42,356 bases of DNA from positions 1 to 42,356 of the IMG/VR virus record IMGVR_UViG_3300032257_000035. One strand, written 5' to 3'. Source of the stretch: a virus. Lineage: Duplodnaviria > Caudoviricetes. Of the stretch, positions 600 through 41,568 are shown piece by piece. How positions within the stretch are numbered: position 1 is the stretch's first letter; each line of letters opens with the position of its first letter. The notes below the pieces were generated by a model. The model was not told the DNA's origin, searched no databases, and was given only the letters and a program-made list of their open reading frames with translations. A program made the position numbers and the translations under genes.

Positions 600-779
600 A
601 TGGCAATTACAGTTGAAGCAAATCGAATTGCGCTTGAAAGAAAGATGCCGTTATCGAAATTAGAAATAACCGTATGGCAACGTTGGTATAAAGGCCGATC
701 GATGTTTTATATTATGGAAATGCAAGGCAGAAACAGCGCGCCGTTTTACCTGGTAAAAAAAGGTGCGCGCCATGGGTGA
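600..779 (+). CDS. Small basic hypothetical protein
   Basis: ATG 600 with AGAGGG upstream; overlaps the start of the recombinase. Confidence 0.5.
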   Translation: MAITVEANRIALERKMPLSKLEITVWQRWYKGRSMFYIMEMQGRNSAPFYLVKKGARHG

Positions 780-1740
780 GGTTACGGCATTAAAAATAAA
801 AACAATTACTTTACCGGGTGATATGTTGGTAATTGCAACTAATTTTTTAAACCAATTGGTTGCTAGAAATTACGCTAAAAATACGGTTGCATCGTACCGG
901 CATGATTTAGAGCAATTTATCGGTTATTGCACACAACACGATATTTTATTGGTGCAGATTGTAACAACCAATGTATTAGATGATTTTATTAATGCATTAC
1001 TGCAAGGCGAACAAGTAAAGCCTATTACCGCACGCCGTAAAACCGCCACATTACGTGAGTACTTTAAATACTGCAAAAGCCGCGGGCTTATTAAAGTGTT
1101 GCCGACCGATGGTATGGCAAAAATAAAAGTACGTAACTCGGTTGTTATCGCGCCAACCGAAAACGAATTATTAAAAGTGATTGAGCATATTGATATCACC
1201 ACGCCGATGGGGTTGCGTGATCGCGCTATGATATATTTAATGTTTGATGCTGGCCTGCGTTGCAGTTCAGTTTGTAGTATTGATATTTTTAACCCTCAAA
1301 ATCCACCCAGTAATACGACATGGCCAAGTGGTGTTGTGACGTTTACAAACAAGGGTGGTGATATTGAAGAAAACCCCATTAGTGCCACCACCTTGCTCTA
1401 TATAAAAGATTGGTTAGCCGTGCGACATAATTTTGTTGCCAAAGGCAAGCCGCCAACGAGCGCCATGTTTATTGGCCACGGCCGTGGCCGTATATCTCGC
1501 CGTGGGTTTTTAGCGCGGGTTAAATTTCATGGGGCGAATGCAGGTATGCCGCATTTACACCCGCACTTATTTAGACACCGACGTGCGGTAGATGTAATGA
1601 CAAACTTGGGTGTACACCACGCGCAACATTTATTAAAGCATGCCAACCCAGCCACTACGATGGCTGTATATGGCGGGCATTCTAGCGTGCAAATGCGCAA
1701 TGATTTACGCAGTAAGTGCGCGTTAGGGGTGGCGGTATGA
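772..1740 (+). CDS. Tyrosine recombinase 1 (XerC/D-like)
   Basis: SAM-like N-terminus (NTVASYRHDLEQF), RDRAM..GLR, NKGG, HPHLFRH, LLKH..TTMAVY: R-K-H-R-H-Y residues all present. Confidence 0.9.
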   Translation: MGEVTALKIKTITLPGDMLVIATNFLNQLVARNYAKNTVASYRHDLEQFIGYCTQHDILLVQIVTTNVLDDFINALLQGEQVKPITARRKTATLREYFKYCKSRGLIKVLPTDGMAKIKVRNSVVIAPTENELLKVIEHIDITTPMGLRDRAMIYLMFDAGLRCSSVCSIDIFNPQNPPSNTTWPSGVVTFTNKGGDIEENPISATTLLYIKDWLAVRHNFVAKGKPPTSAMFIGHGRGRISRRGFLARVKFHGANAGMPHLHPHLFRHRRAVDVMTNLGVHHAQHLLKHANPATTMAVYGGHSSVQMRNDLRSKCALGVAV

Positions 1741-2834
1741 AGTTAACGATTAACACAAATGATTTACGTAACGTTGTTAATAATACGGTTATCAACTCAA
1801 AATCAACCTTAGATGTTTTGCAGCATGCTTTATTTGAAGTGTGTGGCAATAAAGCGTTGGCCCATATAAGCGTTAGCACAAGCAATGAAGTTGAAACGCT
1901 AACGACTTATATAGAGGGTGTGTGCAATAAAGAAACCGCTGCGTTTACGGCAAGTGTACAACAATTAAAGGCCGCGTTATTTGGCATTGACGATGAAAGT
2001 GTGGTTTTAAATTTAAGTGAACGGCAGCTTTCATTAATTATTGGCCGACGTAAATATAAAATTCAAACGTTGCCGGCTAATATTTTCCCAAAATCCAATG
2101 ACGATAACGAAGAAAAAAAGCAAATGGATATTGCGGCATTGCGTGAAGGGCTGCAGTCGACTCAATATTGTCGCGATAAAACGAATGATTTAACCATATA
2201 TAGCGGCATATGTTTCGATGTTGATCATGTTGTGGCGCTTGATGGTAGGCGTTGTGCGGTATCGCCATGCCGTACCGGCTTGGAAAACACTATTGTTATC
2301 CCCGGTCAAGCTGTGTCCAGTATATTGAAAAACCTAATTGATGGTTGTAATTTTTTCGTTCAATCCATTGGTGAAACGGTTATTGGGGTTCGGTTTGCAA
2401 CCGATGCATTTAGTTTAACCGTTAGGACGCGCACTGAAACATACCCAAACTGGAAAGCGGCACTCATTGATATTGATAAGGCTGATATTCATACCGTTTT
2501 TAATGGCAATAATTTAGCAAGCGCGATTAAAAGAGTAACGCCATTTTCATTAAAAAACATTGACGGCAAAAAGTGGCAGCGTATCGCCGTTGCTAGTGGC
2601 GAGAATAAACTTGCAATCACTTGCCTTGACGGCTCCGCTGATGATTACGCCGAATGTATTAACGCCGATGAATTTAACCTTGAGATAAACGCGATGTATC
2701 TAACGGATATGTTGGCGGCGTGTGGGCAAAACGAGATTACATGGCACGCTAACAGTGCGGAAAGATTGCAGGCGTTTACGTCAAAAGATAGCGTGGCAAC
2801 CCATTTTATTATGCCAATGGGTGCAGAGGCATAA
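1737..2834 (+). CDS. dnaN: DNA polymerase III beta sliding clamp-like protein
   Basis: About 365 aa; motifs VALDGRR, TYPNWK, INAMYLTDML and C-terminal FIMPM match DnaN. ATGA overlap with recombinase 1. Confidence 0.8.
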   Translation: MKLTINTNDLRNVVNNTVINSKSTLDVLQHALFEVCGNKALAHISVSTSNEVETLTTYIEGVCNKETAAFTASVQQLKAALFGIDDESVVLNLSERQLSLIIGRRKYKIQTLPANIFPKSNDDNEEKKQMDIAALREGLQSTQYCRDKTNDLTIYSGICFDVDHVVALDGRRCAVSPCRTGLENTIVIPGQAVSSILKNLIDGCNFFVQSIGETVIGVRFATDAFSLTVRTRTETYPNWKAALIDIDKADIHTVFNGNNLASAIKRVTPFSLKNIDGKKWQRIAVASGENKLAITCLDGSADDYAECINADEFNLEINAMYLTDMLAACGQNEITWHANSAERLQAFTSKDSVATHFIMPMGAEA

Positions 2835-3103
2835 TGCAGCGCCAATGCCCCCGTTGCGGCTTAATGAACGCATTACAGCGTGCAACATGTTCATCATGTT
2901 TAACGCCGTTACGCCAAAAACGTTTTCATATGGATAGAAATAAAATTACATATATTCATGTACTTAAAAATAGGAAAGGTTTAACCGATGAATTCTATCG
3001 CTTACGGTTAAATGCGTTGGGTGTTAATTCATGTAAAGAATTAAAGGCTGCCACATATTATAAATTTATTAACGGCTTAAAGGCTTTACCCGATGCAGCA
3101 TGA
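2834..3103 (+). CDS. Zinc-ribbon + GemA (Mu gp16/DUF1018)-like protein
   Basis: CPRC..CSSC followed by IHVLKNRKGLTDEFYRLRL..GVNSCKEL, which resembles the GemA N-terminus. Confidence 0.65.
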   Translation: MQRQCPRCGLMNALQRATCSSCLTPLRQKRFHMDRNKITYIHVLKNRKGLTDEFYRLRLNALGVNSCKELKAATYYKFINGLKALPDAA

Positions 3104-3323
3104 ACTTACGCGTGAATTAGCACCGCCATGGGTTAACTATATAGGGCAACAACCGTGGGGCACCTGGTATGGCTTTAATAAAAAGCCGATTAAACCAAAA
3201 TTAAAAATGCCACGCTCGGCATTGCAAGAAATTGAGAGCGGGTGGTGCAGTGATGGCCGGCGCATTATTTTACAAAACGATAAAGCCAATGTTTATTGGT
3301 ATAGAACTTTAAAGGAAATTTAA
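3093..3323 (+). CDS. Hypothetical protein
   Basis: Overlapping ORF in the early operon. Confidence 0.6.
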   Translation: MQHELTRELAPPWVNYIGQQPWGTWYGFNKKPIKPKLKMPRSALQEIESGWCSDGRRIILQNDKANVYWYRTLKEI

Positions 3324-3325
3324 AC

Positions 3326-3622
3326 ATGACAACTGAAATAAAAAAACATATAGATAAACTTGGGTTTAAATGCACTGACAAAGTAACGGGGTTTTCGGGT
3401 GTTATAACCACAGTCGGGTTTGATCTATATGGGTGTGTGCAGGCTCTAGTTAATCCCGGCGTTAACGAAAATGGTAAACCATATGATTTAGTTTGGTTTG
3501 ATATAGCAAGACTTAAAATAACCAATAAAAAACCAGTAATGGAAATACCGAACTTTGATTGTGGAGATATCGCAAAAGGATTAAAGGGCCCTTCTGATAA
3601 ACCAAGCAATGGTAAATCATAA
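3326..3622 (+). CDS. Hypothetical phage protein
   Basis: [32 protein letters not shown] pattern; coupled to ssb. Confidence 0.7.
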
Positions 3623-40454: not shown

Positions 40455-40460
40455 AGCCTT

Positions 40461-40466
40461 ATTATA
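40461..40466 (-). promoter_or_regulatory. -10 element of a PRM-like cI promoter
   Basis: Perfect TATAAT 6 nt upstream of the cI ATG. Confidence 0.55.
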
Positions 40467-40502
40467 CGCAATTAGTATTATTAAAATAATTAAAATGTAA
40501 TG

Positions 40503-40531
40503 TTGATCTATCTTAAAATAAGTGCTACCTT
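40503..40531 (+). promoter_or_regulatory. PR-like early promoter
   Basis: TTGATC-17 nt-TACCTT upstream of cro. Confidence 0.5.
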
Positions 40532-40576
40532 TCTTTTATGCAGGAAAATAAATGAAATCAACATTTCGGTGAAAGC

Positions 40577-40810
40577 ATGAATTTAGACGAATATTTTAAA
40601 TCTGAGAAACTCAAAAAGTGCCTAGGCGATACAATGGCTAAAATGGCTATGCGCCGTGGTGTTGCCCCTGCAAGTATTCGCGGATGGCGGCATGGTGAGG
40701 GTATCTCGCTTGAAAATGCTTTCTGGGTAGAAACAGACACTAACAGCCAAGTTACCGCACGTGAAATTAACGAATTCCAAAAACGACTAAAACAGGATTC
40801 TGCCGCATGA
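40577..40810 (+). CDS. Cro-like HTH protein
   Basis: MNLDEYF..AKMA..GVAPASIRGWRHG..T..QVT; divergent from cI. Confidence 0.75.
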   Translation: MNLDEYFKSEKLKKCLGDTMAKMAMRRGVAPASIRGWRHGEGISLENAFWVETDTNSQVTAREINEFQKRLKQDSAA

Positions 40811-41568
40811 AAATGATCGGCTACATTCGCGTAAGCACCGATGACCAGGCGAAAGAGGGTAAAAGCCTTTCGATTCAAGGTTTGCAGATAAATCATTATT
40901 GCGATTTGCATGGCCATAGCCTTGATTTTGTTTTTATCGACTTTGGCGTGAGCGCATCGATTGAGCTGCAGAAACGGCCTGCCGGCCAAGCCATGATGAC
41001 CGCCATTAAAGATAAAGATATTGACGGCATTGTATTCCAACGTTTTGATCGCATGTTTCGCATTGCCGCCGACGGCTTAATTACCGGCGGCCGATTAATT
41101 AAATGCGGCATAGCGGTGCAATCGATTAATGAAGGCGTAAACATTAATACCACTGCCGGTTGGTTGGTTTTTACCATGATGCTGGGCACCGCCGAGTATG
41201 AACGCAATAAAATTATTGATCGGGCACGCGAAGTAACCGCCGGACTGAAAAAACAAAACAAAGTATGGGGCCATGTGCCATATGGCTGCATTGAATATGG
41301 TCGCAAGGTTTATCGCTGCCAAGCTACCTGGCCGATGCGCGAGTGGATACAAGAAATGCGCGACACGCAAAAACTTACCTTTAACGCCATTACAAAAATA
41401 TTGTTTAAAAATAAAATTGAAGCACCTAAAGGTGGGCATGAATGGCATGCCAGTACGGTAATGGGTTTGTGTAATTCGTTCCATGCTCACAAGGTTATAC
41501 CAATGCTTGGTTCATACAACGAAACGGTTGTTTCAAACAATTTACAGCACTCTTATACAACTAAATAA
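40807..41568 (+). CDS. Serine recombinase (resolvase catalytic domain plus short recombinase domain)
   Basis: GYIRVSTDDQ, D.GVSA..RP, DRMFR, AEYER..I..R, G.VPYG. Confidence 0.92.
   Translation: MKMIGYIRVSTDDQAKEGKSLSIQGLQINHYCDLHGHSLDFVFIDFGVSASIELQKRPAGQAMMTAIKDKDIDGIVFQRFDRMFRIAADGLITGGRLIKCGIAVQSINEGVNINTTAGWLVFTMMLGTAEYERNKIIDRAREVTAGLKKQNKVWGHVPYGCIEYGRKVYRCQATWPMREWIQEMRDTQKLTFNAITKILFKNKIEAPKGGHEWHASTVMGLCNSFHAHKVIPMLGSYNETVVSNNLQHSYTTK

What the first reader, a model, noticed from the sequence alone, without database searches (positions are those of the whole stretch)
772..41568. Four-recombinase phage: three XerC/D-like tyrosine recombinases and a serine recombinase, each wired to a different module
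Seen: recombinases at 772-1740, 6668-7672 (minus strand) and 10289-11353 all keep R-K-H-R-H-Y. All have a Xer-like size and N-terminus with no evident lambda-Int arm-binding domain. Number 1 overlaps dnaN (ATGA), number 2 sits beside a dif-like site, number 3 overlaps the Mor activator, and the serine recombinase overlaps cro (ATGA). Known: temperate phages normally carry one integrase; Xer works as a heteromeric pair; RIT trios are adjacent genes, unlike these. Inference: the overlaps with core genes argue for a native staged system rather than passenger elements. Different recombinase combinations could perform integration, excision and multimer resolution, with directionality set by which partner is expressed. 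This is my best candidate for an undescribed system.
Basis: partly seen in the sequence, partly recalled or inferred. Interest (0 to 1): 0.85.

Follow-up and report, generated by a model that had tools for sequence, protein, structure and literature searches.

The report
Tailed phage family hijacking host dif
This phage belongs to a widespread family that keeps four DNA-recombining enzymes and whose relatives sit in the host's chromosome-untangling site; two of the enzymes likely work with the host's own Xer machinery to insert and remove the phage, while the other two likely do separate jobs in its lytic cycle.

Summary
The window is a complete circular phage. All four recombinases are intact, and all four occur in the same order in 12 of 15 near-complete relatives found through TerL or T3, including the isolated phage MACPNOA1. 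They form separate clades that track TerL, so they are not passengers. They are not one four-enzyme machine either. Relatives integrate at the host dif site (7 paired junctions). The attP at 7738-7765 keeps the XerD arm and central region but not the XerC arm. It carries an IHF-like box and a second recombinase-type site, whose spacing shifts by one helical turn between relatives. T1, T2 and this attP are lost together in a relative that uses a classical integrase at tRNA genes, while T3 and the serine enzyme stay. T2 loses catalytic residues in some lineages; T1 keeps its Arg, Lys and Tyr and T3 all six in every copy checked. Best reading: a tailed Xer-exploiting phage that brings its own Xer-like partners (T1 catalytic, T2 helper), plus two independent enzymes. 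T3 follows a conserved putative packaging box. No target site was found for T3 or the serine enzyme, and no activity was tested.

The parts
40577..40810 (+). cro-like gene opening the early operon (label from position, divergent from the cI-like gene at 39993-40454); overlaps S
   Evidence: an XRE-family gene holds the same place in MACPNOA1
40807..41568 (+). S: short serine recombinase (253 aa), catalytic domain plus a short recombinase-domain-like tail; core gene, target site unknown
   Evidence: PF00239; catalytic Arg/Ser/Arg/Arg invariant in 19 of 19 and 15 of 15; PF07508 on 2 of 18 homologs; present in 15 of 15 relatives
33..518 (+). cII-like activator (the frame begins across the circle junction)
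   Evidence: phrog_4834; lies between S and T1 in relatives
772..1740 (+). T1: Xer-like tyrosine recombinase in the early operon; likely the catalytic phage partner at attP
   Evidence: Arg, Lys, Tyr invariant in 51 of 51; co-lost with attP in G013 and L044
1737..2834 (+). dnaN-like sliding clamp; variable neighbour of T1
2834..3103 (+). zinc-ribbon gene, weakly GemA-like, conserved between T1 and T2
   Evidence: phrog_286; PF06252 only at E 0.001-0.006 in two relatives
6668..7672 (-). T2: Xer-like tyrosine recombinase with a family-specific insertion; terminal prophage gene beside attP; likely helper and direction factor
   Evidence: catalytic loss in 2 of 23 genomes and 10 of 86 homologs
7635..7660 (-). 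second recombinase-type site overlapping the first codons of T2, 102 bp from the start of the XerD arm
   Evidence: strict motif at 101-102 or 113-114 bp in 13 of 19; strongest third-codon-position peak of eight genes scanned, z 8.6
7696..7708 (-). IHF-like box 29 bp beyond the XerD arm (consensus recalled)
   Evidence: 8 of 15 vs 1.1 expected; at 27-29 bp in 9 of 19
7738..7765 (-). attP core: non-XerC arm 7755-7765, central region 7749-7754, XerD arm 7738-7748
   Evidence: matches paired prophage junctions in relatives
7880..9539 (+). O-like replication initiator with internal repeats, then DnaC-like loader; first genes on the other side of attP
10150..10240 (+). conserved bipartite DNA box ahead of T3 (C-run, nearly fixed spacer, A-run/G-run); candidate packaging site
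   Evidence: aligned in 22 of 28 loci, seen in 10 of 10 further records; the MACPNOA1 record starts inside it
10289..11353 (+). T3: Xer-like tyrosine recombinase heading the Mor-TerS-TerL-portal cluster; core gene, target site unknown
   Evidence: six catalytic residues invariant in 48 of 48 homologs and 30 of 30 loci
11328..11837 (+). Mor-family activator overlapping T3
   Evidence: PF08765
13030..15677 (+). putative small terminase (label from position) and large terminase; family marker
   Evidence: phrog_2

Best explanation
This is a temperate tailed phage of a family that integrates at the host dif site, and its four recombinases likely form three separate devices: T1 and T2 likely act with host XerD (and XerC) at the extended attP, while T3 and S likely act on the phage's own DNA. 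Shown by sequence: integration at dif, regeneration of a host-type dif at the T2 end, the attP layout, and joint loss of T1, T2 and attP. Inferred: host XerD binds the intact arm of both sites; T1, made from the early operon after infection or induction, occupies and cuts at the non-XerC arm; T2 binds the second site over its own start, is looped to the core by IHF, and activates or biases the reaction as XafT does for TLC, which needs no catalysis of its own. Integration also parts the rep-dnaC genes from the cro operon, so excision would rejoin them. T3 is inferred to act late, at or near the packaging box, converting between circular and multimeric genomes. S is inferred to be an early resolvase or circularising enzyme. 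The T3 and S roles are the weakest steps.
For: Paired junctions in G006, G014, G020, G023, G026, G028: host-side XerC arm 8-9/11, phage arm 2-4/11 against E. coli dif. Junctions of prophage G023 match the attP of circular G025. The hosts G005 and G006 encode true XerC and XerD. G013 and L044 lack T1, T2 and attP but keep S and T3; G013 has a PF12167 integrase beside tRNA genes. G003 keeps T1 and a dif-like site without T2. T2 lacks catalytic residues in 2 of 23 genomes and 10 of 86 homologs; T1 lacks Arg, Lys or Tyr in 0 of 51 and T3 lacks any in 0 of 48. IHF-like box and second site shift by about 11 bp. T2 holds the terminal position that xafT/p15 holds in other dif-targeting phages (PMC12715192). 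T3 precedes TerS-TerL in the T3 loci mapped, L032-L052 except the short ones, and follows the conserved box.
Against: No activity, binding or expression was tested. T2 keeps all six catalytic residues in 76 of 86 homologs, and some of the 10 losses may be alignment shifts at the Lys. T1 groups with XerC at only 82% support in an unfinished tree search. XerC arms are naturally the more variable half of dif (PMC3025954), so host XerC might tolerate the phage arm. G010's host-side arm is not XerC-like (3/11). G003's site is flipped relative to rep, so it may work differently. The second site is missing in G026, G027 and G028. No site was found for T3 or S. T1 lies 6 kb from attP, and its joint loss rests on two records, one a fragment.
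Confidence: 0.55

Rival explanations
1. T2 is a self-sufficient simple integrase that targets dif with IHF and its accessory site, without host Xer; T1 serves excision or another task.
For: T2 sits beside attP at the prophage end like a normal integrase; catalytic set intact in 76 of 86; simple integrases such as Brujita's exist (PMC8138268); G010's target lacks an XerC-like arm.
Against: G002 and G004 are complete genomes with intact attP whose T2 lacks the catalytic Arg and Lys; G003 has no T2; the XerD arm is kept on the phage side (7-10/11).
Confidence: 0.2
2. Host XerC and XerD do all the cutting, as for TLC; T2 is the activator, and T1 is only an excision factor or works at another site.
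For: XerD cuts even on TLC's poor arm (PMC4246890); attP sites with only the XerD arm occur in PM2-like phages with an XafT homolog (PMC12715192).
Against: T1's catalytic Arg, Lys and Tyr are invariant in 51 of 51 and T1 is lost with attP; the phage arm mostly lacks the inner XerC bases (1-4 of the inner 5 in 14 sites).
Confidence: 0.15
3. One reading: all four enzymes form one staged system on the dif-like site, with direction set by partner choice.
For: All four co-occur in 21 of 24 near-complete relatives and co-descend.
Against: S and T3 persist where T1, T2 and attP are absent and a classical integrase is present; serine and tyrosine enzymes use different chemistry (established knowledge).
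Confidence: 0.07
4. The extra recombinases are passengers on small mobile elements, or dead folds reused as regulators like SPbeta MrpR.
For: True passengers occur: an integron-integrase-like gene sits beside T2 in G004 and G006. MrpR shows that the fold can become a repressor (PMC10516654). T2 may be partly on that path.
Against: Fixed order, three clades at 99-100% support, Mantel rho 0.69-0.84 against TerL, no bounding repeats, invariant active sites in T1, T3 and S.
Confidence: 0.03

Closest known systems
TLC-type IMEX (TLC phage, GGI) and dif-type double jelly-roll phages such as PM2
   Same: Double-stranded 28-bp attP with a host-matching centre and one lost arm; a dif is regenerated at one junction; a phage gene beside attP; PM2-like phages also keep only the XerD arm and swap between dif-type and integrase-type modules (PMC4246890, PMC5357621, PMC12715192, passages read).
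   Different: Tailed 42-kb phage; TLC and GGI lose the XerD arm, this loses the XerC arm; Xer-like recombinases stand where XafT/P15 stands; IHF-like box and phased second site; IMEX are described as lacking their own integrase.
Tyroviruses (Bacillus phages, PMC9703825)
   Same: Three distinct conserved Xer-like recombinases at separate places, one in the virion module; functions untested.
   Different: 160-170 kb Bacillus phages with a palindromic 11-6-11 site and plasmid genes; no Tyrovirus matched this TerL; here attP is asymmetric, integration at dif is seen, and a serine enzyme is added.
Microcystis phage MACPNOA1 (KY697807.1)
   Same: Family member: all four genes in the same order, same attP layout and box; TerL 44% identical.
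   Different: 68% GC; deposited with generic labels; three papers mention it, and the one passage read does not discuss its recombinases.
RIT elements (RitA/B/C)
   Same: Three simple tyrosine recombinases.
   Different: Genes here are not adjacent and lack RitA's doubled core-binding domain (PMC8138268).
Lambda Int intasome; P1 Cre-lox (both recalled)
   Same: IHF-bent attP with a phased accessory site (works like lambda); a recombinase near the packaging genes (T3 may work like Cre).
   Different: No arm-binding domain, so the accessory site would be read by a second whole recombinase; no lox-like site found for T3.
SPbeta MrpR (PMC10516654)
   Same: A recombinase-fold protein serving without catalysis, as proposed for T2.
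   Different: MrpR keeps 3 of 7 catalytic residues; most T2 copies keep all six checked.

Membership tests
IMEX | dif-like attP and integration at host dif | tested here: met
   6 of 7 paired junctions have a host-type XerC arm
IMEX | a host-type dif is regenerated at one junction | tested here: met
   T2-side junctions
IMEX | integration needs host XerC and XerD | not testable with these tools
   hosts G005 and G006 have both genes; dependence needs mutants
IMEX | no integrase of its own | tested here: not met
   T1 and T2 are intact recombinases tied to attP; it works like an IMEX but is not a standard member
TLC-type IMEX | XerC arm kept, XerD arm degenerate | tested here: not met
   reverse pattern: 4/11 and 10/11 in the window
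TLC-type IMEX | XafT-type activator | tested here: inconclusive
   no DUF3653 match in 0 of 5 genomes hit; the link of DUF3653 to XafT is recalled and was not found in PMC9226527
XerC / XerD | score above TIGR02224 / TIGR02225 cut-offs | tested here: not met
   separate clades
RIT elements | three adjacent genes; RitA with two core-binding domains | tested here: not met
Tyrovirus group | 160-170 kb Bacillus phage with shared core proteome | tested here: not met
   42 kb; TerL search of 50,697 phage records hit 2, neither a Tyrovirus
Large serine integrase | long C-terminal recombinase, zinc-ribbon and coiled-coil region (recalled) | tested here: not met
   S is 253 aa and its 18 homologs 233-259 aa; only lengths 139-443 were searched
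Mu-like transposable phages | DDE transposase with MuB; GemA and Mor (recalled) | tested here: not met
   no such transposase among 60 ORFs; Mor present, GemA only weak

The most novel reading that the evidence does not exclude
A tailed phage builds a hybrid Xer tetramer in which its own recombinase T1 replaces host XerC on the phage arm and pairs with host XerD, a second recombinase T2 acts through an IHF-phased accessory site as the direction switch, and a third, T3, works at the packaging site as part of genome maturation.
Probability: 0.3. Interest if true: 0.9.

Novelty: new variant of a known kind. Interest (0 to 1): 0.74.

Why it matters
Studied Xer-exploiting elements are filamentous or non-tailed phages and islands that bring at most a small activator. 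Here a full tailed phage family, with homologs named from Thioalbus, Luteimonas, Stenotrophomonas and Methylococcales, brings whole Xer-like enzymes and an accessory-site layout to dif. It offers a direct test of two open questions: how an element at dif controls direction and escapes FtsK-driven excision, and whether Xer subunits of host and phage can mix. It also gives a co-occurrence handle on why some phages keep several tyrosine recombinases, left open for Tyroviruses. T3, invariant and tied to the terminase genes, may be a new packaging-linked recombinase.

Tried and rejected
Mu-like transposable phage: dropped (no DDE transposase; GemA weak). Passenger elements: no bounding repeats. T1 as a dead enzyme because of its shifted Tyr: rejected, the shift is family-wide. 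Sites for T3 and S: the third-position scan of eight genes gave one strong peak only, at T2; a dyad at the S tail was in 7 of 16 genomes, inconclusive. Reads: two mat metagenome runs held as contigs only; no RNA holder listed; no host junction, inversion or genome end seen; X1 may be the window's source. The MACPNOA1 start inside the box could also come from a sequencing drop at GC runs. Promoter scan at 6400-8000 no better than shuffles. No Rfam match, no tRNA. Fold search of the T1 model gave only general tyrosine recombinases. The careful tree did not finish; the quick tree is cited. Complex prediction not run: recombinase pairs would tend to pass by likeness to solved structures, so it would not separate the rivals. 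Earlier scan notes: none. PMC8074189 gave nothing relevant. One search timed out and was redone.
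Full report
OBSERVATION. The window is a complete circular phage: its last 237 bases repeat its first and a contig closes the circle at 42,119 bp. The order around the circle is cI | cro - S - cII - T1 - dnaN - GemA-like - ssb - accessory genes - T2 (opposite strand) - att - rep - dnaC - T3 - Mor - TerS - TerL - portal - head - tail - lysis. 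T1, T2 and T3 have a core-binding and a catalytic domain and no arm-binding domain; S is a serine recombinase. The three are 22-26% identical to each other and fall far below the XerC and XerD cut-offs. The stated overlaps are real.

A FAMILY TRAIT. I gathered relatives through TerL and T3, which does not select for T1, T2 or S. Of 15 near-complete records (G001-G006, G010-G017, MACPNOA1), 12 have all four genes in the same order; T3 and S are in 15 of 15. Exceptions: G003 lacks T2; G012's record ends before T2's place; G013 lacks T1 and T2. Fragments G007, G008, G009 and G018 were left out. Scans with T1 and T2 gave 9 more records at least 90% complete, and 9 of 9 have all four; this set is biased towards T1 and T2. 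On a 58-row quick tree T1, T2 and T3 are separate groups at 99-100% support with matching subgroups (careful search unfinished). Pairwise identity of T1, T2, T3 and S follows TerL with Mantel rho 0.84, 0.76, 0.79 and 0.69 (T1 of G010-G012 fell under the score cut and was not in that test; shared GC content, 40-69%, may add to the correlation).

THE ATT SITE. Where both prophage ends are held, they carry dif-like repeats. In G006, G014, G020, G023, G026 and G028 the host-side XerC arm matches the E. coli dif printed in PMC3025954 at 8-9 of 11, and the phage arm at 2-4 of 11; G010's host-side arm matches at only 3 of 11. The junctions of prophage G023 correspond to the attP of circular G025. The window's site scores 4/11, 6/6, 10/11. 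So attP keeps the centre and XerD arm, drops the XerC arm, and integration leaves a host-type dif at the T2 end. Two hosts checked have true XerC and XerD. Integration also places rep at one prophage end and the cro operon at the other.

ATTP IS EXTENDED. On the XerD side lies an IHF-like box (consensus recalled): 8 of 15 sites against 1.1 expected from shuffles, at 27-29 bp in 9 of 19 and at 40 bp in two. A second motif resembling a XerD arm lies over T2's first codons, at 101-102 or 113-114 bp in 13 of 19, with 0.016 expected per window. It is the strongest third-codon-position signal in eight genes (z 8.6), so it is a DNA constraint. The five records with the forward box at 29 bp all have the motif at 101-102; the two with it at 40 bp have 113-114. 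An 11-bp step points to a bent nucleoprotein complex (inference). G026-G028 lack both features in the range scanned.

THREE DEVICES, NOT ONE. G013 keeps S and T3-Mor-TerS-TerL but has no T1, T2 or dif-like site, and has an arm-binding integrase beside tRNA genes. Fragment L044 runs from S to T3 without them. L035, L051 and L114 also lack T2 upstream of T3. So T1, T2 and attP are one exchangeable lysogeny module, and S and T3 do something else. Active sites differ: T1 keeps Arg, Lys and Tyr in 51 of 51 (first His changed in 5, second Arg in 2), T3 all six in 48 of 48, and T2 lacks at least one in 10 of 86 homologs and in G002 and G004 (2 of 23). G003 has T1 and a site but no T2, though its site is flipped. 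T2 takes the terminal place that xafT/p15 takes in other dif-targeting phages (PMC12715192).

MECHANISM. Best reading (0.55): host XerD binds the intact arms; T1 fills and cuts at the phage arm; T2, bound at the second site and looped by IHF, activates or biases the reaction. Which of T1 and T2 is catalytic, and whether XerC is needed, is inferred from conservation only. T3 follows a conserved bipartite box in 22 of 28 loci aligned and 10 of 10 further records; the MACPNOA1 record begins inside it with an 81-bp overlap, which fits a packaging site but also a sequencing drop. I infer that T3 acts on late genome forms near packaging, and S on early circles or dimers. No target site was found for either, and contigs of two mat metagenomes show no inversion.

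COMPARISON. It works like an IMEX but fails the 'no own integrase' feature and has the reverse arm pattern to TLC and GGI (PMC4246890, PMC9226527, PMC5357621). An attP with only the XerD arm is known in PM2-like phages, as is swapping of dif-type and integrase-type modules (PMC12715192). Three recombinases in one phage is known in Tyroviruses (PMC9703825), untested. A non-catalytic use of the fold is known from MrpR (PMC10516654). It is not a RIT element (PMC8138268) nor Mu-like.

LITERATURE SEEN. Nine full-text searches listed no paper describing this family, a tailed phage bringing Xer-like enzymes to dif, or a four-recombinase set; the library lacks most subscription papers. I read matched passages, not whole texts, of PMC9703825 (also outline), PMC12715192, PMC9382816, PMC8138268, PMC4246890, PMC9765430, PMC9226527, PMC8074189, PMC10516654, 10.64898/2026.06.12.731946 (94), PMC3025954, PMC2731167 and PMC5357621. 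No supplements were opened; the datasets of PMC8138268 may list family members. LME-1 of Legionella is a phage-like element at dif (PMC9765430), so a larger phage-like IMEX is not without precedent.

VERDICT. Real, conserved and not found described. New variant of a known kind; interest 0.74.

Noticed in passing
L216 (KY697807.1) whole record: MACPNOA1 is 68% GC with a proteobacterial-type dif-like attP, which sits oddly with its listed Microcystis host (host GC near 42% is recalled). Its gene at 12355-13344, labelled XerD, matches the window's tail tube.
   Followed up: partly
G004 36074-37096; G006:C36 21187-22179; L051 4620-5786: An integron-integrase-like gene lies next to T2's place in three relatives; two pass the TIGR02249 cut-off. 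No cassette search was done.
   Followed up: partly
window 8150-8479: In-frame 33/66-bp tandem repeats with internal palindromes inside the rep gene; likely origin iterons.
   Followed up: no
P0118-P0133 and others: Many 600-750 aa proteins with two Xer-like domains in tandem; those checked keep both His-Arg-His-Tyr motifs. Context unknown.
   Followed up: partly
window 3323-3621, 4713-5843, 6076-6710: A close strain in run X2 lacks the first segment and has other DNA in the other two, while keeping T1, T2 and T3: a variable region between T1 and T2.
   Followed up: partly
G003 20306-20333: The T2-less relative has its dif-like site flipped relative to rep and the most XerC-like inner arm of 14 sites (4 of 5).
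   Followed up: partly
G010 143-170: The host-side arm is not XerC-like; possibly a tandem insertion into another element's junction.
   Followed up: no
window 41521-41534: A short dyad near the 3' end of S, within one mismatch in 7 of 16 genomes; operator or recombination site, unresolved.
   Followed up: partly
window 15677-17794: Portal fused to a Mu F-like head domain, conserved across the family.
   Followed up: no
window 12046-12866 (-) and 4085-4747 (+): A RadC/JAB gene and a repressor-like gene inserted between Mor and TerS; a class I methyltransferase in the variable region.
   Followed up: no
P0219 (window T2): The same protein is recorded on a 76,988-bp contig, longer than the phage, so an integrated copy may exist; not retrievable here.
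   Followed up: no
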